This document shows, one piece after another, positions 1-12,647 of a stretch of 12,647 nucleotides of DNA. Made by a program: the position numbers and the translations under genes. The stretch lies in IMG/VR virus record IMGVR_UViG_2671180422_000004. One strand, written 5' to 3'. Below the pieces are notes generated by a model. The model saw only the letters and a program-made list of their open reading frames with translations. It was not told the DNA's origin and did not search any database. Position 1 is the first letter of the stretch; the number at the start of each line of letters is the position of its first letter. This DNA is from a virus (Duplodnaviria; Heunggongvirae; Uroviricota; Caudoviricetes).

Positions 1-642
1 TTAATCGGACGCTTTTAAATTTTTATTTTTCCCAGCAGAAAAATTAGCTTTCCCGCTGTTTTGCAACTCAACAAGAGGAGATAACCGTCGGTAAACAGCC
101 AAAAGTATCTTTAACTGAACCAGTTCATCTGCCCCCGATAGTTGAACCAAGTTTTTACGTTGTTCTTCACTAAGTGCCATCACAGATTCAAGTGATTTAA
201 CTGCGTCAGAAACAAGTTCAATCTCTTTAATTTGATTCTGTATACGCAGCTTCTCTGATTTCAACTTTGCCCATTCTCTTTGTCGATATGTACGCATCAC
301 CTGATCGTAAACTTTGTTGGCAGCCAGAATACTTCCACCAACAGCAGTAACTAACTCAGCAATCTGCCAAGAGATATCAATAAGAGCAGACAATTCAATA
401 AAGCCAGGAGAGGCATACTGAATTTTTTTCACTACAGGACGTAAATCTGGTGGAGTCGCACTGTAAGCCCCTCTAAAAAAGTTCACCACACTGTGCCCAC
501 CCTCCCAAGGCATTGTTGAATATCCTCTTGATCCTCCTTTTAGGCCATAAAAAAAACCATATAGCTGCAAATACTCTTTCGTTAAGACCGCGAAATCAGC
601 TAACTCCCAACGATTATCAAGCTCAATTATAACTTTTTCCAT
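1..642 (-). CDS. Hypothetical protein, 213 aa; AT-rich accessory ORF beyond ogr, function unknown
   Basis: Complete minus-strand ORF: ATG at 642-640, TAA stop at 3-1 (the window starts exactly at its stop). GGTGG SD-like element a few nt upstream. Visibly lower GC than the adjacent P2 genes. C-terminal half is K/E/L/Q-rich (coiled-coil-like). I recognise no catalytic motif. Confidence 0.55.
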   Translation of the reverse strand: MEKVIIELDNRWELADFAVLTKEYLQLYGFFYGLKGGSRGYSTMPWEGGHSVVNFFRGAYSATPPDLRPVVKKIQYASPGFIELSALIDISWQIAELVTAVGGSILAANKVYDQVMRTYRQREWAKLKSEKLRIQNQIKEIELVSDAVKSLESVMALSEEQRKNLVQLSGADELVQLKILLAVYRRLSPLVELQNSGKANFSAGKNKNLKASD

Positions 643-742
643 TTTCCACCAACCTGTCCAACTTTAAAGATTGACTTTTAAGTATATGATAAACATAGTT
701 TATTAAACGTGATCCACTACTTTTAATGAAGAATATTCCCCA

Positions 743-778
743 AAACAGAAAGCCCCTCGACTGAGGGGCTTTCTGTTT
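743..778. terminator. Bidirectional intrinsic terminator hairpin downstream of ogr
   Basis: Perfect 16-bp inverted repeat AAACAGAAAGCCCCTC (743-758) / GAGGGGCTTTCTGTTT (763-778) with 4-nt loop GACT. GC-rich core flanked by an A-tract and a T-tract, so it can terminate in either orientation. It begins 5 nt past the ogr stop. Confidence 0.65.
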
Positions 779-782
779 GTAA

Positions 783-1001
783 TTACATCCACATAATTTG
801 CTGCCCTGACGGCAACGGGTGCGGCCTTACGGCGTGGACTTCTCCCGGTTTCACGATGTATCGCTGTACCGACTCATAAGTGATGAACGTGGCGCTGCAA
901 TTCACGTTCTGACACTGGTGATAACGCTCTTTTGTCGTGTCAGTAATATAGCGACTTGTACGCGCATGTGCGGCATGCTGGCATAAAGGACAATGAAACA
1001 T
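783..1001 (-). CDS. ogr: Ogr, zinc-finger late-gene transcriptional activator (72 aa)
   Basis: Translation from the internal ATG (1001-999) gives MFHCPLCQHAAHARTSRY...SGQQIMWM, 72 aa, with C-x2-C ... C-x4-C zinc-finger cysteines, matching my recollection of P2 Ogr. AGAGG-type SD about 8 nt upstream. The 93-aa ORF-track version starts at an upstream in-frame start codon that I consider unlikely. Confidence 0.9.
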   Translation of the reverse strand: MFHCPLCQHAAHARTSRYITDTTKERYHQCQNVNCSATFITYESVQRYIVKPGEVHAVRPHPLPSGQQIMWM

Positions 1002-1082
1002 CGCGAGCACCTCTTCCGGTTTTGTTGATGGTGCCATTTTAGTTAATTTATCCTTATAAAACAAACAGATAAAATAAAAACA

Positions 1083-1922
1083 TCACTCATCATCTTCTGT
1101 TTCGTACTCCACATCAGAAAGCCTGACCTCAAGCTCTAAGGACGTCGTGAAGCCGCTATTATTCAGAAAATGTGTCACCTTAGTGATTGTCCAGTCCTGC
1201 TCGTCTATGACGCGCTTAAAGCCTGACACTTTAACCGGTGTTTCCGTGTAAATATCAGCCCGACCGGTAGCCAGGCTGATGGAGAACTCCGCAACGCCCC
1301 GTTGCAGTTTATCCCACTTCGCCTGAGCGGCGCGCATGGCCTGCGCTTTCGTGGCATATACCGTAGTCAGGGCAAAAACATTGTCAGCCTCACCTGCCAT
1401 GTATTCACCTTCGCGCGCTTCCGGTACTTTTGGCGCTTTCTTCTGCGTGACCGGTTTCGCTTTCGGGTGCTCCAGTGCGCGCAGGTGTTTCTCTTTCTTT
1501 TTGCGTTTCAGTTTTACCTTCTGCTTTTGCGGCTTCGGGTCTTTGGTGTGTAACCACTTTGCCGTTACGCCGGTGTAGGCTCCACGGTCAGCAATCGCAA
1601 AATGATGGCGGTCACCGTCGCTGCGGGTGATGGTGACCTGCGGGATTTTTTTACCGCTGGCCGTCACCCCCTGCCCCGCTTTGAGAAACAGCAGTTTTCC
1701 CATTTTTACCGACACCTCACCGCCGTTGCGTTCTGCAAGACGGGTCAGAAATTTCGCATCAGACTCCTGCGACTGGTCGATGTGCGGGATTTTAATTCCG
1801 GCCAGTGACGGAGCGACACTGGCTTCCAGCCTGTTACGGGAGGCTACCCGTTCTGGTCGGGTGAACTGTTCAACCGGGGACGCGCCAGCGCCGCCGAACG
1901 CGTGGAAATCGACGTCAGTCAT
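1083..1922 (-). pseudogene. D: 5'-truncated tail gene D (phage late control D / gpD family), C-terminal about 270-280 codons retained
   Basis: C-terminal sequence (...IKIPHIDQSQESDAKFLTRLAERNGGEVSVKMGKLLFLKAGQGVTASGKKIPQVTITRSDGDRHHFAIADRGAYTGVTAKW ... lysine-rich linker ... SLELEVRLSDVEYETEDDE) reads as gpD family. P2 gpD is about 387 aa by recollection, and the N-terminal region is absent because the upstream open frame is antisense to terminase coding sequence. The minus frame stays open to 2219 and the ORF-track start at 2123 is a TTG; the true 5' limit is the deletion junction, which I cannot place exactly. Confidence 0.7.
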
Positions 1923-2741
1923 AACGCCCTTGCCGGTGGGCTTCTCTGTGCAGACGGCCAGTGGCGGCAGATTGTCACCATTGAGGACGCGCTGAAAGGC
2001 GGCTGCACGCTGTTCGACATTGAGCAGCTCAAACGTGAAAACAGCGCCGACGATTTTAAAAACCTGTTCATGTGTGAATTTGTTGACGACAAGGCGTCGG
2101 TGTTCCCGTTCGAGGAGCTGCAACGCTGCATGGTCGACACGCTGGAAGAATGGGAAGACTATGCGCCGTTTGCCGCGAATCCGTTCGGCTCCCGCCCGGT
2201 ATGGATTGGTTACGACCCGTCACACCGTGGCGACAGCGCCGGATGCGTGGTACTGGCACCGCCGGTGGTGGCCGGTGGCAAATTCAGAATACTTGAGCGT
2301 CACCAGTGGAAAGGCATGGACTTTGCCACTCAGGCGGAATCCATCCGCAAACTCACCGAAAAATACAACGTCGAATACATCGGTATTGATGCCACCGGCC
2401 TCGGTGTCGGCGTGTTCCAGCTCGTGCGCTCGTTCTATCCCGCCGCGCGCGATATCCGCTACACACCGGAAATGAAAACCGCAATGGTGCTCAAGGCAAA
2501 AGACGTCATCCGCCGTGGCTGTCTGGAATATGACGTCAGCGCCACCGACATCACCAGCTCGTTTATGGCTATCCGCAAGACCATGACCAGCAGCGGACGC
2601 AGCGCCACGTATGAGGCCAGCCGCAGCGAGGAAGCCAGCCACGCCGACCTCGCCTGGGCGACCATGCACGCCCTGTTAAATGAGCCACTCACCGCCGGTA
2701 TCAGCACCCCGCTGACATCCACCATTCTGGAGTTTTACTGA
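1902..2741 (+). pseudogene. P: 5'-truncated terminase large (ATPase/nuclease) subunit gene P, C-terminal about half retained
   Basis: Translation contains the terminase nuclease-domain signature ...RPVWIGYDPSHRGDSAGCVVLAPP...GKFRILERHQWKGMDFATQAESIRKLTEKYNVEYIGIDATGLGVGVFQ... and ends with a TGA overlapping the Q start (TGATG). P2 gpP is about 590 aa by recollection, so the N-terminal ATPase half is missing. The ORF-track start at 1902 is a GTG; the frame is open back to 1809, where an in-frame TGA sits. Confidence 0.75.
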
Positions 2742-3775
2742 TGAGCAAGAAAAAAGGGAAAACACCGCAACCTGCGGCCAAAAAAATGACCGCCAGCGCC
2801 CCGAAAATGGAAGCATTCACCTTTGGCGAGCCGGTACCGGTACTCGACCGCCGTGACATTCTGGATTACGTCGAGTGCATCAGTAACGGCAGATGGTATG
2901 AACCACCGGTCAGCTTTACCGGTCTGGCAAAAAGCCTGCGTGCTGCCGTGCATCACAGCTCACCGATTTACGTCAAACGTAATATTCTGGCCTCAACATT
3001 TATCCCGCATCCGTGGCTTTCCCAGCAGGATTTCAGCCGCTTTGTGCTGGATTTTCTGGTGTTCGGTAATGCGTTTCTGGAAAAGCGTTACAGCACCACC
3101 GGTAAGGTCATCAGACTGGAAACCTCACCGGCAAAATATACCCGTCGTGGCGTGGAGGAGGATGTTTACTGGTGGGTGCCGTCCTTCAACGAGCCGACAC
3201 CTTTCACGCCCGGCTCCGTGTTTCACCTGCTGGAGCCGGATATCAATCAGGAGCTGTACGGCCTGCCAGAATATCTGAGCGCCCTTAACTCTGCCTGGCT
3301 GAATGAGTCGGCCACGCTGTTCCGCCGCAAGTATTACGAAAACGGCGCTCATGCCGGATATATCATGTACGTCACCGATGCCGTGCAGGACCGCAACGAT
3401 ATCGAAATGCTTCGCGAAAACATGGTTAAGTCGAAAGGCCGCAACAACTTTAAAAATCTGTTTCTCTATGCCCCGCAGGGGAAAGCTGACGGCATTAAAA
3501 TTATCCCGCTCAGTGAAGTGGCAACGAAGGACGATTTTTTTAATATCAAAAAAGCCAGCGCCGCTGACCTGCTGGACGCGCACCGCATCCCCTTTCAGTT
3601 GATGGGCGGCAAGCCGGAGAACGTCGGGTCACTGGGAGATATTGAGAAAGTGGCAAAGGTCTTTGTCCGCAATGAGCTTATCCCGCTACAGGACAGGATC
3701 CGCGAGATAAACGGCTGGCTCGGTCAGGAGGTCATCCGCTTTAAAAACTACTCACTGGACACTGACAACGGCTGA
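2741..3775 (+). CDS. Q: Portal (capsid portal vertex) protein Q, 344 aa
   Basis: 344-aa product MSKKKGKTPQPAAKK...FKNYSLDTDNG, same length and lysine-rich N-terminus as P2 gpQ as I recall it. ATG at 2741 overlaps the P stop (coupled operon). Followed by a terminator. Confidence 0.92.
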   Translation: MSKKKGKTPQPAAKKMTASAPKMEAFTFGEPVPVLDRRDILDYVECISNGRWYEPPVSFTGLAKSLRAAVHHSSPIYVKRNILASTFIPHPWLSQQDFSRFVLDFLVFGNAFLEKRYSTTGKVIRLETSPAKYTRRGVEEDVYWWVPSFNEPTPFTPGSVFHLLEPDINQELYGLPEYLSALNSAWLNESATLFRRKYYENGAHAGYIMYVTDAVQDRNDIEMLRENMVKSKGRNNFKNLFLYAPQGKADGIKIIPLSEVATKDDFFNIKKASAADLLDAHRIPFQLMGGKPENVGSLGDIEKVAKVFVRNELIPLQDRIREINGWLGQEVIRFKNYSLDTDNG

Positions 3776-3780
3776 ACATC

Positions 3781-3802
3781 GCCGCCTGCGGGCGGCTTTT
3801 TT
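3781..3802 (+). terminator. Intrinsic terminator after Q
   Basis: GCCGCC (3781-3786) / loop TGCG / GGCGGC (3791-3796) followed by TTTTTT (3797-3802), 6 nt after the Q stop. Confidence 0.6.
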
Positions 3803-3944
3803 ACATCCCGTCATCACGCCCTCACACGCTCACCACCGCACAAAACAGTCCGCAGGCAAACCAACGCCTCAACGGACAGACTAAGCGCCGTCACGACGCG
3901 CTGAGACGCTGAAAAAATAAAATCAGCACCACCGCCAGCGCGCA

Positions 3945-3963
3945 GTGCTTTCCCCGCCTCGCC
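3945..3963. other. cos site: 19-nt cohesive-end sequence of P2 type
   Basis: Plus strand reads GTGCTTTCCCCGCCTCGCC, the reverse complement of GGCGAGGCGGGGAAAGCAC, which I recall as the P2 19-nt cohesive end. It sits where expected, between the Q end and the tin/old-equivalent region. Confidence 0.7.
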
Positions 3964-4057
3964 CGCCCGCTTCATGGGGCGGTTTTGATGCAACCTCGTA
4001 TTAAAGGGGACACCATAGCCCATCAAACCTCAGACTTCGCCCCTAGCTAACGTTTAT

Positions 4058-4087
4058 GAATGCAATGTAATGCAACTTAATGCAAGT
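4058..4087. repeat. Three tandem 10-bp units (GAATGCAATG / TAATGCAACT / TAATGCAAGT) about 60-90 bp upstream of the cargo gene; candidate regulator-binding array
   Basis: AATGCAA heptamer recurs at 4059-4065, 4069-4075 and 4079-4085, with exact 10-bp (one helical turn) phasing, in the AT-rich leader before the SD (AAGAGGA, 4134-4140) and ATG 4147. Confidence 0.45.
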
Positions 4088-4146
4088 TATGGTAATGATA
4101 ATTCTGCGTTAACAATTAAACTAATGTACCTGTAAGAGGATAAAAA

Positions 4147-6630
4147 ATGTCTGGTTTTTTCCTTGATTTAACCAAGCTTTCGCCCAGTGTAAATAGCGAC
4201 ACAGCGATTCCACCGCGAGATATATTTACAGCTCTACCGAGCAAAGACACCAAATTTCAATACCCTCGAGATGTGCAATCAGAGGTCTGGGAAAAATGGT
4301 ATGAAGCAAGGAGAAGCCCAACCAATGTAATAAAAATGAATACCGGAAGCGGTAAAACTTCAGTTGGGTTAATCATTCTTAAAAGCTGTATAAATGAAGG
4401 AGAAGGTCCCGCTGTATATGTTGTTCCTGACAACTATCTAGTTGAGCAAGTGGTTTTGGAGGCTAATCAACTTGGTATACCTGTAACTCAAGATGAGAGG
4501 TCCCCCAAATTTATTGCAGGTAAAGAAATTTTAGTTACAAATATATTCAAAGTGGTTAATGGACGTTCTGCATTTGGCGTTGGAGATGATGGACAAAGAA
4601 TACCAATAGGTTCTATAATAATTGACGATGCTCACGCTTGCCTTTCTTCAATTGAAGAACAATTCTCCATTAGCATTCAAAAAAACAACCCTGCCTATGA
4701 TAAATTATTCAGAATTTTTGAAAATTCACTAATGACACAAGCTGGTGCAAAAACACTAGAGATAAAATCCGGCGATAGAAATGCTTATGTGAGAGTTCCA
4801 TTTTGGAAATGGCAAGAAAGCATAAATGATATAATGACAATCTTGTTAGAAAATAAAGACCATGATGACTTGAGTTTCAAATGGCCATTAATAAAAGACA
4901 ATCTAATATTATCGAAATGCGTTGTAAGTGCTTCCAAAATAGAGATATCACCTCATTGCATACCAATCCAAATGATCCCAAGCCTATCAAACGCAAGAAG
5001 AAAAATATTCATGACAGCTACTCTTGTCGATGAATCCATTCTAGCGAGCCACTTCGGAATAACGGATGAATCACTCTCTAATCCGATAACACCAAAAACA
5101 ATTGGTGATATTGGTGATAGAATGATACTAATGCCTCAGGTTATAAACCCTAGTCTTTCTGATGTAGATATCAAAGCTATGTGCAAGGAGATATCCTCCA
5201 AACATAATGTTGTTGTAATTGTACCATCCGATTACAGAACTAGATTTTGGCAAGATGTTGCAGACAGAATATTAGATAAAAATACAATTTATCAAGGTGT
5301 ACAAGAATTAAGGACACAACATGTTGGCTTAGTAGTCCTAGTTAATAGATATGATGGTATTGATTTACCAAATACCGCATGTCGTCTATTAGTAATAGAT
5401 GGACTTCCTGACGTTCGTAGACTAATAGATAAAGTCTCACAAAGCTTATTGCTTGGAAGCGAAAAAACCAAAGATGAAATTATCCAGAAAATTGAACAAG
5501 GAATGGGGCGAGGAGTGAGATCAAGCGACGACTTCTGCGGAGTGATCTTACTTGGCAAAGCATTAAATGGCGCTGTTTTCCTTGGCTCCTCCTTAGAAAG
5601 GTTTTCTCCAGCAACGAAAGCACAAATTCAACTTTCACAGCAATTGGTATCGATACTGCCGGATACAACTATTGATTCAATCAAAGGTGCTCTTGATTAT
5701 TGTCTGTTACGCAATTCTGACTGGGTCTCAAAAAGCAAAGGTATATTGACTGGCTTAACATTGGAAAATAAGCAGATTGACCAGCATACTATAAATAAAA
5801 GATTGGCATATGACTTAGCATCACGAAATATGTTTCAACAAGCCGCTTTAACTCTAAAAAATGATAGTAGTACAGCTGACAAAGTTTATAAGGGTTATCT
5901 AAAAGAACATGCTGCGGAATATGTAAACTTATATGACAAATCTGAAGCTCAGATATTGCTTCAGTCTGCATCAAACGATAACTATCGGGTATTAAAACCA
6001 CTAATCGGCGTAACATATAATAGACTTAATGGTGCGGCACTTGAACAGGCCAGGGAATGTAGCTCCTATCTCAGAAGTAATTTTGAATCGGCCAATCAAG
6101 TCGTTGTGCATACTAATTCAATAATAGAAAACCTTATTTTCTCCGAGGGCACATCGAATCCCTTCGAAGATGCTATCGAAAAAGTTGCATATTTGGTCGG
6201 TTTTCGTAGCCAACGGCCAGAAAATGATACAGGTAAAGGACCTGACAATTTATGGGCAATGGGAGAAAACAATTATCTAGTAATTGAATGCAAAAATGGA
6301 GCAACCGCAGAAAGAATAAGTAAGCATGACTGCAATCAGTTAAATGGGTCGGGTGCATGGTTCAGAAACATGTATGATCAAACTGCTACCGCCACACCTA
6401 TAATGATACATCACTCTAATATGCCTGAATATGCCGCAACACTAAACGAAGGGTCTCGAATAATGACCATAAATGATCTTGAACGTTTTAAAGCATCTAT
6501 CCTCAGTTTTATCACGGCCATTTGTACAAGTGATAAACGACACGATGAGATATTTATAAGAGAACAATTGATCACATGTAAATTACGTGCATCAGACATA
6601 GTTGAAACCTATACGCGAAACCCTCGTTAA
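4147..6630 (+). CDS. Helicase-nuclease fusion protein, 827 aa: N-terminal SF2 DExH-type helicase core plus C-terminal PD-(D/E)xK nuclease-like domain; candidate anti-phage defence/exclusion protein
   Basis: Strong SD AAGAGGA 6 nt before ATG. Helicase motifs in order: I NTGSGKT (aa 65-71; nt 4339-4359), Ia AVYVVPDNYLVEQ, II IIIDDAHA (DDAH, aa 160-163; nt 4624-4635), III FMTATL, V YDGIDLPNTACRLLVIDGLPD, VI QGMGRGVRSSDDFCGVILLG. C-terminal FEDAIEK ... GPD (D700; nt 6244-6246) ... VIECK (E714/K716; nt 6286-6294) fits an E..PD..ExK restriction-endonuclease-like active site. GC clearly lower than the phage backbone (about 30-43% in two 60-nt samples I counted). Confidence 0.85.
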   Translation: MSGFFLDLTKLSPSVNSDTAIPPRDIFTALPSKDTKFQYPRDVQSEVWEKWYEARRSPTNVIKMNTGSGKTSVGLIILKSCINEGEGPAVYVVPDNYLVEQVVLEANQLGIPVTQDERSPKFIAGKEILVTNIFKVVNGRSAFGVGDDGQRIPIGSIIIDDAHACLSSIEEQFSISIQKNNPAYDKLFRIFENSLMTQAGAKTLEIKSGDRNAYVRVPFWKWQESINDIMTILLENKDHDDLSFKWPLIKDNLILSKCVVSASKIEISPHCIPIQMIPSLSNARRKIFMTATLVDESILASHFGITDESLSNPITPKTIGDIGDRMILMPQVINPSLSDVDIKAMCKEISSKHNVVVIVPSDYRTRFWQDVADRILDKNTIYQGVQELRTQHVGLVVLVNRYDGIDLPNTACRLLVIDGLPDVRRLIDKVSQSLLLGSEKTKDEIIQKIEQGMGRGVRSSDDFCGVILLGKALNGAVFLGSSLERFSPATKAQIQLSQQLVSILPDTTIDSIKGALDYCLLRNSDWVSKSKGILTGLTLENKQIDQHTINKRLAYDLASRNMFQQAALTLKNDSSTADKVYKGYLKEHAAEYVNLYDKSEAQILLQSASNDNYRVLKPLIGVTYNRLNGAALEQARECSSYLRSNFESANQVVVHTNSIIENLIFSEGTSNPFEDAIEKVAYLVGFRSQRPENDTGKGPDNLWAMGENNYLVIECKNGATAERISKHDCNQLNGSGAWFRNMYDQTATATPIMIHHSNMPEYAATLNEGSRIMTINDLERFKASILSFITAICTSDKRHDEIFIREQLITCKLRASDIVETYTRNPR

Positions 6631-6639
6631 ACAGTAAAA

Positions 6640-6662
6640 GACCACCTCCTAAGGAGGTGGTC
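6640..6662. terminator. Hairpin between the convergent cargo gene and gene A; likely terminator, better on the minus strand
   Basis: GACCACCTCC (6640-6649) / loop TAA / GGAGGTGGTC (6653-6662), starting 10 nt after the cargo stop. On the minus strand the stem is followed by TTTTAC; on the plus strand the U-tract is poor (CTTGTATAAT). Confidence 0.5.
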
Positions 6663-6869
6663 CTTGTATAATAAAAAGAACCAGTTTTTATTGTTAATAA
6701 TACAATTCTCGAATTTCAACATAGACTTATTGTACCACCAGTAAAATCATCAATATTAATATATAGAAAAAAAGAAATGTCGATTGTTTGTACGTAGCGT
6801 AATCATATTAACATATACAGATAAACAGCAACCTTACCATTATGCAACCAATCTAAAACATTATGTTTA

Positions 6870-9149
6870 TTACTCTGAATAACCAGAAAACCCACTCCAC
6901 TCATCTACACTAGGATATGAAAATTGCTTTTCATTGTAATTGACGATCGCACCGCGTACTAACGCCTCAAGCTCCCATCGCTGCGGCCTGATACCGTTTT
7001 GAGCAAGGTCAACACGGATACGGGTGATTTGCAATCGTTCAGACCGGGTCAGTCTGGCCGATGGTGCAATTTCATGTGGTTTTAACGGGCTTCCGTTTCT
7101 TTGCTGACGACCTGGCGTTCTCCGACCGTGTTTTAATGCACCCCTGAGCGCCCTCACGACCTCCGGGTCATTCCATTCGATAACACCGTCATCAACCAGA
7201 TTTAGCACTGCTGCGGCGTGCTCAGAAGGTGTGGGAGCCGGTAACGAAGTATCACCACCGGTGAGCTTTCCACAGTTATTGACAGGACTCCGAGGCGCGG
7301 CGATGCCGCTTTTTAAAGTCAAAGGCTCAACGACCGGAACTTTCGGCACAATGCGCCAGTCCGTCGTTCTGGTGATATGAATATGACGCGCGCCGAGATG
7401 CGGCGCGTAAATGCCGACCACTCTCTCGACTTCTTCCTCGTACTCGTTAACGTCATCCGACAGACTACGGGCGACCCTGACAGTCTGACAATCGCGCGGG
7501 ACATTTGCCCCGCCCTGCGCGCTGATATACAGCGCAAAATCACCACTGTCTGCGGCGGCGCGTGCAGCCTCGACGCGCTCGTCAAACTCATCAGCAATGC
7601 TGACGCCGCGAGGCAATTTGCGTAGTTCACGGTAAGCCCCCATTGTCGGCAGGCCAACCGTTTTAAATTGCGGAATGCGCCACGTTGACGCCCATGCGGT
7701 AACAGCCGCTGCAGTGTCTTTCAGCGGCCTGCCGGTGTCGTTATCGAGCTGACCATCCAGTGCATAGCCGTCGATGTTTTTTGAAATGTATTTCGCGATA
7801 TATCCCGCAGCACCGCCCCGGTTAAGGTGTTTTGCCTGAAAACGGTTTCGCGCGGCTCCTCTTTCGTCGCCATCCTCTTTGAGCGCATAGCGACGCATGA
7901 TTTCGATAATCTGGTTACGCTGGCGTGGATGACAAAAAAGCATCATATGCCAGTGCGGCGTTCCGTCGTGGTGTGGCTCGACGACTCGCAAACCGTAGAC
8001 CTGTAAATCATTATCCTTGAATGCCGTGCGCATCAGGCTCCAGATACGGCAGAGATAACGCTGCGCATCCTTTGGATTAAATGCCTCATCGTTCCAGCCG
8101 TGATTAAGCTGAACGGTTTTACTTTCGCCTTTTCCGACCTGACGTGTCGGGTGATACTTTGACGGCGCGGTCAGCGTGATAAACATCCCCACATCACCCT
8201 CTGCGGCGGCGTAACGCTCAATACCGGCAATGGTGTTCATCAGCTCCATCCGGCGAATTTCAGGATTAGAAATACTGCCCATCACCTTACTGATAAGGTC
8301 GATGCGCTCGCCGGTTTCCCTGTTTTCAAGGTCACACGATTTAAGAAATTCCAGATTTGCCTGGCGGCGCGCACGCACATCACGAATGGCGTGTTTACTG
8401 GCATAAGGAGAACGGTCTTTATTGACCTCCCCGACAGCTATCAGTAACGCCTCATGCCAGCGCATACGCTGGCCTTTAAGCTGATGAGTCCACCACTCAT
8501 CGTTAAACAGGCGGGCAATGGCAGAATATGCCTGCCTCGTGGTCATCTGTCCTTTACGGTATTTTTTCCAGTAGAGCGGGGAAATATTGAAAGCACGTGC
8601 AGCGCCAGCAACATGACCATACAGGTGAGCCTGCGCCTCATCCGTAAACAGCGATTCTTTTTCACCATGCGCATCAACCCATGCATCGCAGAGTTCCTCA
8701 TACATCATGAAAAGCTGCGATGAGATACGGGCGGCAAACTTTTTCAGCTCCTTGTCATTCATTCCCGGCAGGCGCGCATAGTGGTCACGCTCTGCCAGAA
8801 ACAGCAACGACGCGTCGGTGTTCATTTCATGGCGCTGATTCACACGCTCAATGCGCGGCCATAAACGACGCTGAAAAGTAGATGTGAGGAAATAAAACCC
8901 GTGCACCGGGCTTTTATTGCGCCGGATGTAGTCATAGCGTGAAGTAAACAGCGAGCGCAAAAAGTAAGGCAGGCGGTTAATCGTGGATAAAACACCTTGC
9001 ACCTGACGCATCTCGTCACGTGTAAGAGGTCTTTCGCGCCCGACAGCCTCGCGTGGCGCGTTCCATGCATAAGCACCGGTAAACGCCTTACCGGTGCCTG
9101 CGGTAAATGCTGACGGAGGGACAAAACGCCCGGAGGCTTTAACGGCCAT
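6870..9149 (-). CDS. A: Replication initiation protein A (rolling-circle initiator endonuclease), about 759 aa
   Basis: Translation from ATG 9149 starts MAVKASGRFVPPSAF..., which matches my recollection of the P2 gpA N-terminus and length (about 761 aa). The ORF-track start at 9191 is a TTG giving 14 extra residues, which I reject. The last ~25 codons use AT-rich codons unlike the rest of the gene. Confidence 0.9.
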   Translation of the reverse strand: MAVKASGRFVPPSAFTAGTGKAFTGAYAWNAPREAVGRERPLTRDEMRQVQGVLSTINRLPYFLRSLFTSRYDYIRRNKSPVHGFYFLTSTFQRRLWPRIERVNQRHEMNTDASLLFLAERDHYARLPGMNDKELKKFAARISSQLFMMYEELCDAWVDAHGEKESLFTDEAQAHLYGHVAGAARAFNISPLYWKKYRKGQMTTRQAYSAIARLFNDEWWTHQLKGQRMRWHEALLIAVGEVNKDRSPYASKHAIRDVRARRQANLEFLKSCDLENRETGERIDLISKVMGSISNPEIRRMELMNTIAGIERYAAAEGDVGMFITLTAPSKYHPTRQVGKGESKTVQLNHGWNDEAFNPKDAQRYLCRIWSLMRTAFKDNDLQVYGLRVVEPHHDGTPHWHMMLFCHPRQRNQIIEIMRRYALKEDGDERGAARNRFQAKHLNRGGAAGYIAKYISKNIDGYALDGQLDNDTGRPLKDTAAAVTAWASTWRIPQFKTVGLPTMGAYRELRKLPRGVSIADEFDERVEAARAAADSGDFALYISAQGGANVPRDCQTVRVARSLSDDVNEYEEEVERVVGIYAPHLGARHIHITRTTDWRIVPKVPVVEPLTLKSGIAAPRSPVNNCGKLTGGDTSLPAPTPSEHAAAVLNLVDDGVIEWNDPEVVRALRGALKHGRRTPGRQQRNGSPLKPHEIAPSARLTRSERLQITRIRVDLAQNGIRPQRWELEALVRGAIVNYNEKQFSYPSVDEWSGFSGYSE

Positions 9150-9414
9150 ATGAGCCAAAAGCCTCTGAACAACGCTTGCTGAGTTGCTCAACCTGCGCGT
9201 TTAAATCAGCAAAAGATTTTGCGCTTCCGGTCAGAATATCGTGATGCATCAGGCCGGAAACGAGCTGGCCTAATTTCGGGTAATAACCAACCACCGCCAG
9301 CCATTCCTGACCGGCGTTTTTACCGCTTTCCGCTCTCTTTTTCTCGTGGAGAATAAACTGAAAGCTGTCACTGGTAACGACATAACGTTCGCCAATTTCA
9401 ATACGAATACTCAT
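9139..9414 (-). CDS. Small early-operon protein, P2 orf83-like (91 aa)
   Basis: ORF in the position of P2 orf83 immediately upstream of A; its start overlaps the orf82 stop (ATGA-type coupling). Confidence 0.7.
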   Translation of the reverse strand: MSIRIEIGERYVVTSDSFQFILHEKKRAESGKNAGQEWLAVVGYYPKLGQLVSGLMHHDILTGSAKSFADLNAQVEQLSKRCSEAFGSYGR

Positions 9415-9635
9415 GCCGTTCTCCGGTAATGTTTGTTTTTTGCTTCAAAGACTGACTGACAGGAAACACAACGCGTGGCTGACGGATAAGCCGCACGACG
9501 GGCAGCAGGTATTGGCGCGTCACACTCTTCGCAAACCAGCGCAGAAACACCGCAATGTTTTACCCTTGCCGCGTTAATCTGGCGCTCCAGTAATTCAGCC
9601 TGTTGTTCCTGAATAAAATCCACGTTGTCCGGCAT
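9411..9635 (-). CDS. TraR/DksA-family C4 zinc-finger protein, P2 orf82-like (74 aa)
   Basis: CEEC ... CVSC four-cysteine arrangement in a 74-aa protein; position between the orf81-like and orf83-like ORFs; start overlaps the upstream stop. Confidence 0.8.
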   Translation of the reverse strand: MPDNVDFIQEQQAELLERQINAARVKHCGVSALVCEECDAPIPAARRAAYPSATRCVSCQSVFEAKNKHYRRTA

Positions 9636-9940
9636 TACCAGCTCCTTTTGTCGTTCAGCTTCTTAAATTCATCAGCGCAATAACTGGCGAGTTCTGTCGT
9701 TAATTTTGTCAGTTCATCCACTGAGGAAATTTGCTTGTGGAATACAGCGCGTTTAACAAGTAAATTGACCACATCAGACAGGAGGTTTAATTCACTCTGA
9801 TAAATCGCGATAACAGATTCAGTTATTTCGCGCTTCTCTTTATCAATACCAAGTTGAATAAGAGACAAATCACCATTTTTCATAACGGCGATTTTTAAGG
9901 CGTTATTCAGTAATACAACCGAACGAGAACAGGACATCAA
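9635..9940 (-). CDS. Small early-operon protein, P2 orf81-like (101 aa)
   Basis: ORF with start overlapping the orf80-like stop; position conserved in the P2 early operon between B and A. Confidence 0.7.
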
Positions 9941-10161
9941 AGCACCTCCCCGCGAGACAATCCGATATTGTGAAATTTTTCCGACTCCTGACTGAGCAGC
10001 TCAACTATCTCCACGCGGGATAACTCCGCCTTTGTGATGTGGCGAATCATGGCGTCAAGATGAGAAGAAAAGCGCGTCGCAGCGTCGGCCTGTGCTTCGG
10101 TTCTGGCCTGTTGCAGCAGTAATGCGTATTTACCGCACTGATTTTCAGAAACTGTATGCAT
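9937..10161 (-). CDS. Small early-operon protein, P2 orf80-like (74 aa)
   Basis: ATG at 10161-10159 preceded by GGAG about 7 nt upstream; located immediately after B in the early operon. Confidence 0.7.
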
Positions 10162-10224
10162 GACTTTCTCCAGGCAAAAAGAAGCCCCGCACGATTAAGT
10201 GCGTTAAAAACTCTGGTTAATTAT

Positions 10225-10725
10225 TTAATGCAGATATTGCTCTGGTTTTACCGACGTCAGAATTGTCGGTGCATACTCAAACAGACTGAATAATTCACGT
10301 AATGCACGGAATAAAGCATCACGCCAGTAACATGATTCTTCATTAATTCGCCAGTACGGCTGATTGAATTCTTTTTCTGTCAATCCCGCATGCATAAATA
10401 AAGTACGACGCTGACTGACTGTTAAAAAACTAATATATGCATACTCACTTGCGCCGACCTGACGGCGTTTTGAGAATGCGCCACGCAATTCATCAATTGC
10501 ACAAACCAGTCGTTCACGTTCGACGTCGTTCATTTCTTCAAAACGCATCGTTGCGTGACGCTGTTTTAACTGTGCATGAAAGCAAACCGTTAGCCGTTCG
10601 CGCTCCATCATCTGATTATAATAATCACATGTATCCTGCCAGCGAGGGACGGCAAGATGCTTGCCAATTATCCGGCGCATAGCTGCTGGCTGTTTTTCAA
10701 CGAGATTGAGCGTCATCACTGTCAT
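10225..10725 (-). CDS. B: Replication protein B (helicase-loader-like), 166 aa
   Basis: Translation from ATG 10725 starts MTVMTLNLVEKQPAAMRRIIGKHLAVPRWQDTCDYYNQMMERERL..., consistent with my recollection of P2 gpB (166 aa). GGAGGG SD is 7 nt upstream of this ATG and only 1 nt from the ORF-track ATG at 10731, so I take 10725 as the start. Confidence 0.85.
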   Translation of the reverse strand: MTVMTLNLVEKQPAAMRRIIGKHLAVPRWQDTCDYYNQMMERERLTVCFHAQLKQRHATMRFEEMNDVERERLVCAIDELRGAFSKRRQVGASEYAYISFLTVSQRRTLFMHAGLTEKEFNQPYWRINEESCYWRDALFRALRELFSLFEYAPTILTSVKPEQYLH

Positions 10726-10892
10726 TTCCATACCCTCCGGCTTTTCAGAAAGGTCAGAGCCTTTTTTAACGGACTCTGTTTTTTGGTGCGGATAATGATT
10801 CCCTTACGCCCCTTACCGTGGGTGATGGTGAAGTCAATCGCCCTGGGGCTTTCGTTACGCAATAACTGAGCAATACAACGCGGCTCATTCAT
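10722..10892 (-). CDS. Small protein, P2 orf78-like (56 aa)
   Basis: Sits between cox and B; ATG 10892 follows the cox stop (10895-10897) and its stop overlaps the B start. The longer ORF-track version (start 10919) would overlap cox. Confidence 0.55.
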   Translation of the reverse strand: MNEPRCIAQLLRNESPRAIDFTITHGKGRKGIIIRTKKQSPLKKALTFLKSRRVWK

Positions 10893-10894
10893 AA

Positions 10895-11182
10895 TCACAA
10901 CCCCATCCACAAAAGCCATGCATCACGCTGTTCAACCGGTCGGTTATAAAACGCCTCACGTACAGCGCGATTAAACTCAGGAATGAAAACCCATTTTTCA
11001 CCGGCACGAGCCTTCGGTTTGCAAGGATCACGCAATTCAATAATTGGTAATTTATTTGCCTTCACCATTTCACTGACGGCTGTCTTTGGCTTCCCTAATA
11101 AATCAGCAAATTTATCCACATGAACCGCATCAAGCGGATACTGAATCACATAATTTTCAGCGTCCATATATGGTACCCTCAT
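10895..11182 (-). CDS. cox: Cox-type excisionase / early repressor of the lysogenic promoter (90-95 aa)
   Basis: First gene of the early operon, divergent from C; size and basic character fit the P2 Cox family. Start is ambiguous: ATG 11182 (95 aa) or ATG 11167 (90 aa), the latter with GAGGG 8 nt upstream. Confidence 0.8.
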   Translation of the reverse strand: MRVPYMDAENYVIQYPLDAVHVDKFADLLGKPKTAVSEMVKANKLPIIELRDPCKPKARAGEKWVFIPEFNRAVREAFYNRPVEQRDAWLLWMGL

Positions 11183-11303
11183 AGGATCCAGCCCTTTCTA
11201 AACCACTCAAAACCGTTTAGATGCTGGTTTATTCTCAAATCAATGGAACCTATATAGGTTCCAGTTTTGAGGGAATTTAGTCCCTATATAGGCACCATGT
11301 CAA
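11183..11303. promoter_or_regulatory. Immunity switch region (Pe/Pc-type promoters and operators) between cox and C
   Basis: Intergenic region between the divergent cox and C genes. Contains the 18-bp perfect palindrome GGAACCTATATAGGTTCC (11245-11262) and a second copy of its core, CCTATATAGG (11283-11292), in AGTCCCTATATAGGCACC; both carry TATATA (-10-like) hexamers. Confidence 0.6.
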
Positions 11304-11597
11304 ATGAAATTAAGCGAAAAGATTAAGGCCTTGCGTGAGGCTGAAGGGCTAAGCCAATCAAAATTCTGTGAAATCATAGAGTTACCGCTAAGCACACTTA
11401 AAAAATATGAAGGAGGAAACTTTGAACCCGGTGGCACAGCTTTGCTAAAAATCACTATGCATCCCACATTCCAAAAATATGCTCTATGGCTTATGACAGA
11501 TAAAACCGCGCCGGACGCAGGACAAATCGCACCGGCTCTCGCGCACATTGGGCCAGAGTCAACAGAGTCCAACCACTCCGCGAAAAGGATTGGCTAA
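11304..11597 (+). CDS. C: Immunity repressor C (P2 C family, 97 aa)
   Basis: 97-aa product ending ...WLMTDKTAPDAGQIAPALAHIGPESTESNHSAKRIG; the C-terminal half closely resembles my recollection of P2 C (...QIAPESGQIAPALAHFGQ...), while the N-terminal DNA-binding part differs. Position between the switch region and int. Confidence 0.85.
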   Translation: MKLSEKIKALREAEGLSQSKFCEIIELPLSTLKKYEGGNFEPGGTALLKITMHPTFQKYALWLMTDKTAPDAGQIAPALAHIGPESTESNHSAKRIG

Positions 11598-11666
11598 CTC
11601 TATATAAAGATTACATTTTCACCATTTGCTACCAAGATGGTGAATACAGCGCCGGAGGGCTTTCTT

Positions 11667-12647
11667 ATGGCAATTAAGAAGCTCGATGATGGTCGCTATG
11701 AAGTGGACATTAGACCTCGCGGTCGCGACGGAAAACGCATCCGCAGGAAATTCGAAAGAAAAGCTGAAGCACTAGCATTTGAGCGATACACAATCGCCAA
11801 TGCCAGTCAGAAAGAATGGGGAGGCCAGCGAGCAGACCGCCGGACTTTGAGTGAGTTGCTGGACATCTGGTGGAAATATCACGGGCAAAACCACGAGCAT
11901 GGAACAAAAGAGTTTAATCATCTACTCAAAACCATCAGCGGCATAGGTGATATACCAGTGAGCAGGATGAGCAAAAGGGCTTTGATGGATTATCGTTCCA
12001 TGCGACTACGTGATGGTATCAGTGCCGCAACGATAAACCGTGACATGTACCGATTATCCGGCATGTTCACAAAATTAATTCAATTGGATGAATTTTCCGG
12101 GCAACACCCAATTCACGGACTGCCGCCACTGGCGGAGGCCAACCCTGAAATGACGTTCCTGGAAAAAGCAGAAATCGAAAAACTGTTAAATGTTTTGGCT
12201 GGTGATGACTTACTTGTCGCGCTTTTATGTCTGAGCACCGGAGGAAGATGGACGGAAGTTGCCACGCTAAAACCAGCACAGATTACAAATTGCAGGGTTA
12301 CCTTCCTGAAAACCAAAAACGGTAAAAAGCGAACCGTGCCGATTTCTGAGGAACTGGAGAAAAAAGTTAAAGAGGAGGCCAGCGCCAAATTATTCAAAGT
12401 TGATTATGAGAAATTTTGCGGGATTTTACGCAGAGTGAAACCTGATATACCACCCAATCAGGCAACCCACATCCTGCGGCATACATTCGCAAGCCATTTC
12501 ATGATGAATGGGGGCAATATAATCGCACTGCAACAGATTCTGGGACATGCGAGCATTCAGCAGACGATGGCCTATGCGCACCTTGCGCCTGACTATCTGC
12601 AAAATGCCGTCGCTCTGAATCCACTAAAAGGCGGAGTGACGTTATAA
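11667..12647 (+). CDS. int: Tyrosine integrase, P2 Int family (326 aa)
   Basis: Translation from ATG 11667 (GGAGGG SD 7 nt upstream) starts MAIKKLDDGRYEVDIRPRGRDGKRIRRKF... and contains the catalytic-domain signatures ...ATHILRHTFASHFMMNGGNIIALQQILGHASIQQTMAYAHLAPDYL (R, H-x-x-R, Y). TAA stop is the last 3 nt of the window. The ORF-track start at 11637 adds 10 residues, which I consider less likely. Confidence 0.9.
   Translation: MAIKKLDDGRYEVDIRPRGRDGKRIRRKFERKAEALAFERYTIANASQKEWGGQRADRRTLSELLDIWWKYHGQNHEHGTKEFNHLLKTISGIGDIPVSRMSKRALMDYRSMRLRDGISAATINRDMYRLSGMFTKLIQLDEFSGQHPIHGLPPLAEANPEMTFLEKAEIEKLLNVLAGDDLLVALLCLSTGGRWTEVATLKPAQITNCRVTFLKTKNGKKRTVPISEELEKKVKEEASAKLFKVDYEKFCGILRRVKPDIPPNQATHILRHTFASHFMMNGGNIIALQQILGHASIQQTMAYAHLAPDYLQNAVALNPLKGGVTL

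What the first reader, a model, noticed from the sequence alone, without database searches (positions are those of the whole stretch)
1809..2219. Deletion junction fusing truncated terminase gene P to truncated tail gene D
Seen in sequence: a plus-strand terminase C-terminal fragment and a minus-strand gpD C-terminal fragment abut with their truncated 5' ends facing each other. Both frames are open over 1809-2219 (plus-frame TGA at 1806-1808, minus-frame stop at 2220-2222), so the breakpoint lies in this interval. Established knowledge: in P2, P and D are separated by about 24 kb holding scaffold, capsid, small terminase, lysis, tail and baseplate genes. Inference: a single large deletion removed the whole structural module, so this prophage cannot form particles on its own.
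Basis: partly seen in the sequence, partly recalled or inferred. Interest (0 to 1): 0.55.

Follow-up and report, generated by a model that had tools for sequence, protein, structure and literature searches.

The report
P2-like prophage deletion at recurrent breakpoints
This is the scar of a 21-kb deletion that removed nearly all head, tail and lysis genes from a P2-like prophage of E. coli; such decay is ordinary, but both breakpoints fall exactly where many unrelated P2-like remnants are also broken, which points to preferred break sites.

Summary
Confirmed. Window 1-1846 and 1844-12647 match the two ends of an intact P2-like prophage between fieF and cpxP in E. coli CFS3273, with 0 mismatches. 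About 21.3 kb is missing (P2 coordinates 2119-23190). That covers P codons 1-292, O through U, and D codons 1-134. The element keeps ogr, D', 'P (nuclease domain), portal Q, cos, a defence-candidate helicase, A with its ori, the early genes and int. It cannot make particles.

The unexpected part is that neither endpoint is random. The P endpoint (P nt 876|877, ...|TACCCGTTC) recurs to the nucleotide with 11 different left partners in independent assemblies, complete genomes included. A control interval in P gave mostly point mutations and two scattered deletions. The D endpoint (TAGCCTCCCG on the P2 + strand) recurs with 5 partners. The same D|P junction occurs in a prophage about 3% diverged from this one, so it arose more than once. 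The D' fragment of E. coli K-12 PR-X ends at another of these recurrent sites.

Overlaps at the P site are always none, T, TA or TACC, as expected of a fixed DNA end joined elsewhere by microhomology. What makes the fixed ends is unresolved. No test supported Int, invertase, insertion sequences, the gpA ori nick or the cos nicks.

The parts
783..1001 (-). ogr (late-gene activator), intact
   Evidence: ORF. Annotated as ogrK at the matching position in CFS3273 and EC2. 97% identical to P2.
1083..1846 (-). D' : 3' part of tail gene D (D nt 401-1164, about aa 135-387), with no start codon or promoter of its own
   Evidence: 0 mismatches to CFS3273 D. Phage_GPD profile positions 106-304. Gene callers report a 206-aa product from the ATG at 1703.
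1844..1846 (.). Deletion junction: CTA present in both parents (GGAGG-CTA-tcgcc in D, gacgc-CTA-CCCG in P)
   Evidence: The deleted interval is CFS3273 locus L003 14507-35818 (21,312 bp), equal to P2 2119-23190.
1844..2741 (+). 'P : 3' part of the large terminase gene (P nt 876-1773, aa 293-590). It holds the tail of the ATPase domain and the whole RNaseH-like nuclease domain. The HTH, Terminase_5 and Walker regions are lost.
   Evidence: Gene callers report a 279-aa product from the GTG at 1902.
1847..2123 (-). Antisense-of-'P extension of the D' reading frame (the 346-aa ORF from TTG 2123). An artefact of the fusion, not a gene.
   Evidence: No assembly on record calls this product. No promoter-like site in 1000-2900.
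2741..3775 (+). Q (portal), intact but without the late promoter that lay between P and O
   Evidence: P2 annotation.
3945..3963 (-). cos: 19-nt cohesive-end sequence identical to that of P2 (GGCGAGGCGGGGAAAGCAC)
4147..6630 (+). 827-aa DEAD/DEAH helicase at the old/tin cargo locus. It matches the PADLOC defence candidate PDC-S28.
   Evidence: The locus is variable in every relative examined.
6870..9149 (-). A (rolling-circle replication endonuclease), intact, containing the ori
   Evidence: Many relatives carry ISEc12 inside this gene.
7271..7310 (-). ori nick region, identical to P2 (AGCGGCATCGCCGCGCCTC|GGAGTCCTGTCAATAACTGTG)
9139..11182 (-). Early operon: orf83/82/81/80 homologues, B and cox
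11304..11597 (+). C-type immunity repressor (HTH)
11667..12647 (+). Integrase (326-aa type, fieF/cpxP attachment site)
   Evidence: attL and attR lie just outside the window.

Best explanation
Window 1809-2219 contains, at 1844-1846, the junction of a roughly 21.3-kb internal deletion in a P2-like (Peduovirus) prophage integrated between fieF and cpxP of E. coli. The deletion fused the 3' 898 nt of the large terminase gene P to the 3' 764 nt of tail gene D, tail to tail. It removed the P/O late promoter region and every head, lysis, tail and baseplate gene. What remains is a 12.9-kb defective element holding int, C, cox, B, A with ori, a defence-type helicase, cos, Q, 'P, D', ogr and a PD-T4-10_B-like gene. 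Shown: the breakpoint, the parent structure and the gene content. Inferred: the joint formed by homology-independent (illegitimate) joining that used TA/CTA microhomology. Also inferred: it formed at two sites that are intrinsically break-prone or join-prone in P2-like genomes. The P site behaves as a fixed 3'-OH end ...ACGGGTA-3' on the P2 + strand (P nt 876|877), which is annealed or ligated to downstream DNA through 0-4 nt of microhomology. The D site (5'-TAGCCTCCCG on the same strand) behaves as a preferred acceptor. Serial use of such sites would produce the stereotyped remnants seen in many strains. The agent that creates the fixed ends (a nick or break made by a phage or host enzyme, followed by fork collapse and template switching or end joining) is not identified.
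For: Parent and breakpoint: (0 mismatches on both sides, 3-bp overlap). Domain content. The 279-aa 'P product is on record in 341 blocks of the assembly collection. P endpoint at exactly 876|877 with 11 different partners, in L003 coordinates: 13952, 14506, 15719, 16015, 16401, about 16550, 18300, 19292, 28528, 32343 and cargo DNA. These occur at three chromosomal sites with three integrase types and in NCBI, ENA, Logan, JGI and IMG/VR assemblies, including complete genomes (Survcare253 plus 6 others, and FT130). Control: the neighbouring 168-nt interval of P (223-aa product) gave 8 of 10 full-length genes with point changes and only 2 deletions, at different positions. D endpoint with 5 partners. 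Independent recurrence: the window and L004 share the D|P junction but differ at 32 positions within about 800 nt, the nearest at -89 and +15, while the window is identical to the intact CFS3273 prophage. L009 and L012 share 13952|35816 at different chromosomal sites. Other recurrent endpoints are 13952, 19469, 19564-6, 37657-9 and 43471-3. K-12 PR-X ends at 13952. Microhomologies at the P site are only none, T, TA or TACC. Small collinear islands of 97-400 bp lie between serial deletions.
Against: No reads are available, so the junction in this particular genome rests on the assembly. None of 5426 complete E. coli genomes carries this exact D|P junction. The hotspot sample is partly selected by exact-product look-ups, which confine the endpoints found to 120-nt (P) and similar (D) intervals. 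The comparison with other positions rests on one control interval and on two junction types from complete genomes. No enzyme is identified. Similarity of the P site to the cos + strand nick (10 of 16 positions) and to the ori nick (9 of 16) is within chance (null 3% and 9%). Terminal hairpins are not generally enriched. No shared k-mer lies at a fixed offset. The TAYCSG/CSGRTA motif at 8 of about 13 TA-type sites was noticed after the fact.
Confidence: 0.85

Rival explanations
1. One-off random illegitimate deletion: a single slippage or end-joining event at a chance 3-bp microhomology, with no site preference.
For: 3-bp microhomology, no insertion sequence and no long repeat at the junction. 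Such events are the textbook route of prophage decay.
Against: Both endpoints recur to the nucleotide with many different partners, and the identical junction recurs in a background about 3% diverged. The control interval shows no such clustering.
Confidence: 0.1
2. Two-step origin: first an ISEc12-associated deletion like that of strain EC2 (U|ISEc12|'P from P nt 652), then a second 3.65-kb deletion that removed the insertion sequence, U and the 5' part of D.
For: EC2 has the same prophage at the same site, matches the window at 100% on both sides, and like the window lacks the ISEc12 copy in gene A that most relatives carry.
Against: No trace of an insertion sequence is left. The window's endpoints are the general hotspots seen in lineages without ISEc12. 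Nothing requires the intermediate.
Confidence: 0.1
3. Site-specific recombinase or transposase action at pseudo-sites (P2-type Int, the Cin-like invertase of this prophage, an IS630-like TA-target transposase, or gpA at pseudo-ori sites).
For: Nucleotide-precise recurrent endpoints. About half of the junctions are TA-to-TA joints. K-12 PR-X joins the 13952 site to the middle of the P2 att core. The 13952 site matches the ori nick region at 11 of 16 positions.
Against: The P hotspot is used in prophages with three different integrases and attachment sites. The invertase sites here are cix-like (TTCTCCCAAACC-AA-GG) and unlike the hotspots. No locus has an insertion sequence at a hotspot. The ends of the excised segments show no inverted repeats (mean 3.4 of 12 matches against a null of 3.0). 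The ori-like match does not survive correction for 21 tests, and its predicted nick is 2 nt from the observed break.
Confidence: 0.1
4. Assembly artefact: a chimeric join of two contigs or a collapsed repeat.
For: None of 5426 complete genomes, the GTDB representatives, the JGI metagenomes or IMG/VR has the exact 41-mer across the junction.
Against: A 3-bp overlap cannot create a graph join. Both flanks are error-free. The same junction is found in an independent NCBI assembly within a 97-kb contig that runs from glpX to cpxP (L004). Equivalent junctions are found in long-read complete genomes.
Confidence: 0.03

Closest known systems
Cryptic prophage PR-X of E. coli K-12 (ogrK plus the yegZ D' fragment)
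   Same: A P2-like remnant that keeps ogr and a 3' fragment of D next to attR. Its D' fragment ends at L003 13952, one of the recurrent endpoints found here, which L009 and L012 join to the same P site as the window.
   Different: PR-X has lost everything else up to the att core (629 bp remain). The window keeps 12.6 kb, including int, A/ori, cos, Q and cargo, sits at a different chromosomal site, and uses the D endpoint at nt 401 rather than 13952.
Bacteriophage P2 (AF063097) and intact Peduovirus prophages such as that of E. coli CFS3273
   Same: 97% nucleotide identity in shared genes, the same gene order, and identical cos and ori nick sequences. The window is 100% identical to CFS3273 outside the deletion.
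   Different: The window lacks P2 coordinates 2119-23190. It has a different integrase and attachment site, and different cargo at the old/tin locus (a PDC-S28 helicase instead of old and tin).
Deletions anchored at a fixed nick or fork-arrest site (M13 and pC194 origin-nick deletions, Ter/Tus-site deletions, gyrase-site illegitimate recombination). Recalled from established literature and not retrieved here.
   Same: One nucleotide-precise endpoint, many partners, and 0-4 nt of microhomology.
   Different: Here the fixed sites lie inside the structural genes P and D and not at the known origin (the ori is 5.4 kb away in gene A). No nickase, arrest protein or topoisomerase site has been tied to them.
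Prophage domestication with retention of defence cargo at the P2 old/tin hotspot. Known concept, not retrieved here.
   Same: In the window and the window-type remnants (L004-L012), the variable cargo locus next to cos is retained while the late genes are lost.
   Different: Gene-level selection does not explain endpoints that repeat to the nucleotide.

Membership tests
P2-like (Peduovirus) prophage | P2 gene order: ogr-D ... P-Q-cos-cargo-A-(orf80-83)-B-cox-C-int | tested here: met
   ORFs and annotation of identical relatives. Collinear 97% match to AF063097.
P2-like (Peduovirus) prophage | P2-type 19-nt cos sequence and the gpA ori nick sequence inside gene A | tested here: met
   Exact cos at 3945-3963. 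Exact 40-nt ori region at 7271-7310.
P2-like (Peduovirus) prophage | Complete morphogenetic module (O N M L X ... FI FII E T U D) able to produce virions | tested here: not met
   All of it is absent. The element is therefore a defective remnant and not a functional member.
Microhomology-mediated (illegitimate) deletion | Junction with 1-10 nt shared by both parental sites, no longer repeat, no mobile element | tested here: met
   CTA is shared. Flanks are otherwise unrelated (13 of 28 positions by eye). No insertion sequence is present.
IS-mediated adjacent deletion | An insertion sequence, or a target-site duplication footprint, at the junction | tested here: not met
   The junction is seamless. 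EC2 shows what the IS-mediated form looks like.
Integrase-mediated or invertase-mediated secondary-site recombination | One partner is the bona fide att or cix site, or both partners resemble its core | tested here: not met
   Neither endpoint is at att or at the cix-like sites. The hotspot is used with three integrase types.
Rolling-circle Rep (gpA) or terminase pseudo-site cleavage | Significant similarity of the break site to the ori nick or the cos nicks, on the correct strand and at the correct position | tested here: inconclusive
   The P site matches the cos + strand nick at 10 of 16 positions, with the nick aligned and on the same strand, but the null probability is 3%. It matches the ori nick at 9 of 16. 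The D site shows no match.
Phage satellite mobilisable by a helper (P4-like lifestyle) | Own integrase, replication and cos; demonstrated packaging by a helper; capsid-size redirection or helper-exploitation genes | not testable with these tools
   int, A/ori and cos are present. No sid, psu or delta-like genes were seen in the Pfam families precomputed for the called genes of the related loci, and these genes were not searched for in the window. Mobilisation is untested.

The most novel reading that the evidence does not exclude
P2-like prophages decay along a stereotyped path. A small set of nucleotide-precise sites (P nt 876|877, D nt 400|401, and sites in FI, Q and D nt 954|955) is repeatedly nicked or broken by a still unidentified phage or host activity. 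The ends are then rejoined by microhomology-primed template switching or end joining. The same deletions therefore arise independently in different lineages, K-12 PR-X among them. The result is a defective element that keeps integrase, replication functions, cos and the anti-phage cargo.
Probability: 0.45. Interest if true: 0.7.

Novelty: new member of a known kind. Interest (0 to 1): 0.5.

Why it matters
On its own, the junction only shows that this prophage is dead as a virus. It remains a carrier of int, replication functions, cos and a candidate defence helicase, which matters for annotation because 'P, D' and the two long fusion ORFs should be called pseudogenes. The wider point is that prophage decay is usually modelled as random deletion filtered by selection. 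Here the same endpoints, and even the same endpoint pairs, recur in diverged P2-like prophages. This suggests a mutational bias (site-specific nicks or breaks) that shapes which remnants exist, the classic K-12 remnant included. The idea can be tested directly with lysogens of P2.

Tried and rejected
(1) Exact 41-mer across the junction: no hit in GTDB representative genomes, JGI metagenomes or IMG/VR. No full-length hit for window 1700-2300 in 5426 complete E. coli genomes.

(2) Exact-product look-ups of the long fusion ORFs (279-aa and 346-aa D' forms): not on record. Gene callers use the 206-aa D' form.

(3) A protein search with full-length P, meant to give a length distribution of truncated forms, listed only full-length clusters.

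(4) Cin-like invertase quasi-sites: rejected.

(5) A shared k-mer at a fixed offset from seven hotspots, as expected for a Type IIS or Type III enzyme: none found.

(6) A hairpin at the retained 3' end acting as an exonuclease stop. It is present at P877 (dG -4.4, 1 nt overhang), 29171 and 28528, but overall it is not above the 15% background.

(7) Similarity to the P2 cos nicks and the ori nick: not significant after correction.

(8) Terminal inverted repeats of the excised DNA or inverted repeats of the flanks, as for a transposase-like excision: none.

(9) Insertion sequences at hotspots in 40 loci: none.

(10) C at position -4 as in type IA topoisomerase sites, Chi-like octamers, and REP/RAYT and IS621 target resemblance: inspected by eye. 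These were inconsistent between sites (the D site fails) and were not pursued.

(11) The gyrase motif score could not be computed, because the position matrix in the Topo-Seq supplement is truncated in the held copy. The text says only that quinolone-stabilised scission occurs before G, which fits one strand at 9 of 15 TA-type sites.

(12) Literature searches for described P2 deletion hotspots found nothing relevant. The 1994 ori-nick paper is not held, so the nick site was taken from the annotation of AF063097.

Full report
OBSERVATION. The window is a compact P2-like prophage. It carries a 213-aa ORF (1-642, -), ogr (783-1001, -) and a D-like ORF ending at 1083 (-). It then carries a P-like ORF ending at 2741 (+), portal Q (2741-3775, +) and an 827-aa helicase (4147-6630, +). 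Beyond these lie A (6870-9149, -), the early genes, a C-type repressor and int (11667-12647, +). The plus frame is open from 1809 (TGA at 1806-1808) and the minus frame from 2219 (stop at 2220-2222). Pfam confirms that only C-terminal parts survive: Terminase_6N profile positions 137-215 plus the whole Terminase_6C nuclease domain, and Phage_GPD positions 106-304. The intact proteins of a relative match these profiles from near their starts.

PARENT STRUCTURE AND BREAKPOINT. A megablast of the whole window against 5426 complete E. coli genomes found 57 genomes covering at least 80% of it. Most match only 1844-12647 in one place and the rest of the window elsewhere. In strain CFS3273 the same chromosomal site (fieF ... 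cpxP) holds a complete prophage with all late genes. Window 1-1846 equals that prophage at offset +12660, and window 1844-12647 equals it at offset +33972. There are no mismatches on either side, and the two alignments overlap by CTA. The deleted interval is L003 14507-35818 (21,312 bp). Against phage P2 (AF063097) the flanks map to 24288-23191 and 2118-1, so P2 2119-23190 is missing. The lost DNA comprises P codons 1-292 with the divergent P/O late promoters, O, N, M, L, X, Y, K, lysA-C, R, S, V, W, J, I, H, G, the Z/fun-invertase region, FI, FII, E, E', T, U and D codons 1-134. The element retains the exact P2 cos sequence (3945-3963) and the exact ori nick region inside A (7271-7310). No sigma-70-like promoter lies in 1000-2900. 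The two long fusion ORFs are therefore best read as unexpressed pseudogenes.

IS THE JUNCTION REAL? The exact junction is absent from complete genomes, GTDB representatives, JGI metagenomes and IMG/VR. However, the 279-aa 'P product is on record in 341 blocks of the assembly collection. One of these places, L004 (GCA_002512785.1, a 97-kb contig running from glpX to cpxP), has the very same D|P junction. A 3-bp overlap cannot be produced by graph assembly. Misassembly is therefore very unlikely, although reads for this particular genome were not available.

THE UNEXPECTED RESULT: RECURRENT ENDPOINTS. The ten places returned for the 279-aa product lie at three chromosomal sites (fieF/cpxP, yegQ/yegR, pflB/pflA), with three integrase types and different cargo genes. 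Eight of them are deletions with different left endpoints (in D, T, E, FI, V and cargo DNA). In all eight, homology to P starts at the same base...|(C)TACCCGTTCTGG, which is P nt 876/877.

The look-up itself only restricts endpoints to a 120-nt interval without in-frame start codons. A control look-up for the next interval (the 223-aa product) gave 8 of 10 full-length P genes carrying point or frameshift changes. It gave only two deletions, at P nt 963 and 1017.

A pattern search that required non-parental bases just upstream of TACCCG found further partners in metagenomes (L003 15719, 16401 and 18301). Searches with two junctions against complete genomes found different junctions that again start at exactly P 877. 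These were T'|'P in Survcare253 and six other genomes, and D'|M fragment|'P in FT130. That makes 11 distinct partners in total.

The D endpoint behaves in the same way. On the P2 + strand, five different upstream sequences are all joined to TAGCCTCCCGTAAC: ACGGG| (window), TCGGA| (FI), TCCTG| (Q), GGGGA| and GCCGGT| (both T).

Other endpoints recur with different partners: 13952, 19469, 19564-6 (where either side can be the retained one), 37657-9 and 43471-3. The D' pseudogene yegZ of K-12 cryptic prophage PR-X ends at 13952. There it is joined to TACACGGGCTTATTTTTT, which is part of the P2 att core.

INDEPENDENCE. The window and L004 share the junction but differ at 32 positions within about 800 nt, the nearest at -89 and +15. 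The window is identical to an intact prophage. L009 and L012 share 13952|35816 at different chromosomal sites, with their nearest differences at -26 and +51. Import of the junction by homologous recombination would need conversion tracts of about 100 nt or less. Independent recurrence of identical deletions is the simpler reading.

HOW IT PROBABLY WORKS. Shown: the joints are seamless and collinear, and they carry 0-4 nt of overlap (rarely more). At the P site the overlap is always none, T, TA or TACC, that is, a prefix of the retained sequence. About half of 25 distinct junctions join two TA sites. Several remnants carry serial deletions separated by retained islands of 97-400 bp, all in the original order and orientation.

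Inferred: the P site acts as a fixed 3'-OH end (...ACGGGTA-3' on the P2 + strand). This end is annealed or ligated to downstream DNA by terminal microhomology. That is what would be expected after a strand-specific nick and fork collapse, followed by template switching or by alternative end joining. The D site acts as a preferred acceptor.

Gene-level selection probably decides which products persist. Loss of the lysis and late genes and retention of the variable cargo locus next to cos would be favoured. Selection cannot, however, explain precision to the nucleotide.

WHAT MAKES THE FIXED ENDS IS UNRESOLVED.
- Integrase is unlikely, because three integrase types share the hotspot.
- The invertase sites of this prophage are cix-like and unrelated to the hotspots.
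- No insertion sequence sits at any hotspot.
- The excised segments have no terminal inverted repeats.
- No k-mer is shared at a fixed offset.
- 3'-terminal hairpins occur at P877 (ACCCG-N7-CGGGT followed by A) but are not enriched overall.
- The P site resembles the cos + strand nick (AACGGGTA|GGCGTCGT against AGCGGGCG|GGCGAGGC, 10 of 16 positions, same strand, nick aligned) and the ori nick (9 of 16). Both are within chance.
- A TAYCSG/CSGRTA motif occurs at 8 of about 13 TA-type sites, against 46 such sites among 1267 TA dinucleotides. It was noticed after the fact and is not sufficient.
- A gyrase-site score could not be computed.

COMPARISON AND NOVELTY. As an object this is a new member of a well-known kind, a defective P2-like prophage. 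Its closest named relative is K-12 PR-X, and intact phage P2 is its parent type. Insertion sequences take other routes in the same prophage: ISEc12 lies inside A in many strains, and an ISEc12-bounded U|'P deletion occurs in EC2. A two-step origin through an EC2-like intermediate cannot be excluded.

My two literature searches found no description of nucleotide-precise recurrent endpoints shared by independent P2-like remnants. If confirmed by an unbiased census, they would be a new variant of site-anchored illegitimate recombination.

VERDICT. The junction lies at 1844-1846 (CTA) and about 21.3 kb is deleted. Interest is moderate because of the recurrent-endpoint phenomenon, not because of the deletion itself.

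Noticed in passing
window 4147-6630 (+): The 827-aa DEAD/DEAH (ResIII, Helicase_C_2) protein at the P2 old/tin cargo locus matches the PADLOC defence-candidate model PDC-S28 end to end (1054 bits). Every related remnant carries different cargo here, for example GmrSD, retron-type RT, AAA_15/21, kinases or FRG.
   Followed up: partly
window 1-642 (-): The 213-aa ORF between ogr and attR has no Pfam hit but matches PADLOC PD-T4-10_B (E 1e-34, profile positions 139-346 of 353). It lies inside the prophage, since the att repeat is at L003 12532-12570. It is absent from L004, L024 and Survcare253.
   Followed up: partly
L042 (E. coli K-12 NC_000913.3) 4603-4821; junction near 4812: The D' fragment (yegZ) of K-12 cryptic prophage PR-X ends at the same base (L003 13952) as the remnants L009, L012 and L011. 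It is joined to TACACGGGCTTATTTTTT, the distal part of the P2 att core.
   Followed up: partly
L002 (strain EC2) 5772-8075, and gene A of many ST167-like genomes: ISEc12 (IS21 family) takes two alternative positions in this same prophage. It sits inside replication gene A in most 100%-identical relatives. In EC2 it sits between U and a 1122-nt 'P fragment, with T through the 5' part of P deleted. The window has neither copy.
   Followed up: partly
L008 9940-9950; L037, L039 and L041 at the P hotspot: Small indels sit at or next to the P hotspot in genes that are otherwise full length or differently deleted: +T in CCCGTT (complete genome CP027484.1) and loss of one C of GCC|TAC in three metagenome or viral contigs. 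The latter three were selected by the search pattern, and one has only 1.1x coverage.
   Followed up: no
L011, L024, L025, L027, L044: Several remnants carry two to four serial deletions that leave collinear islands of 97-400 bp, for example FI 19469-19565, V 28129-28528 and M 31981-32343. This pattern resembles repeated template switching.
   Followed up: partly
L003 23214-23242 and 25168-25196: The intact relative has a Mu/P1-type invertible tail-fibre segment flanked by cix-like sites (TTCTCCCAAACC-AA-GG...). It has a Cin-like recombinase gene with an ISEc22 inserted next to it. All of this lies inside the DNA deleted from the window.
   Followed up: yes
window 1877-1910 (P nt 909-942 region) and 1845-1862: The DNA just inside the retained 'P end is rich in short inverted repeats: ACCCG-ttctggt-CGGGT directly at the break, then TGAAC-T-GTTCA. 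Whether this structure contributes to the hotspot is unknown.
   Followed up: partly
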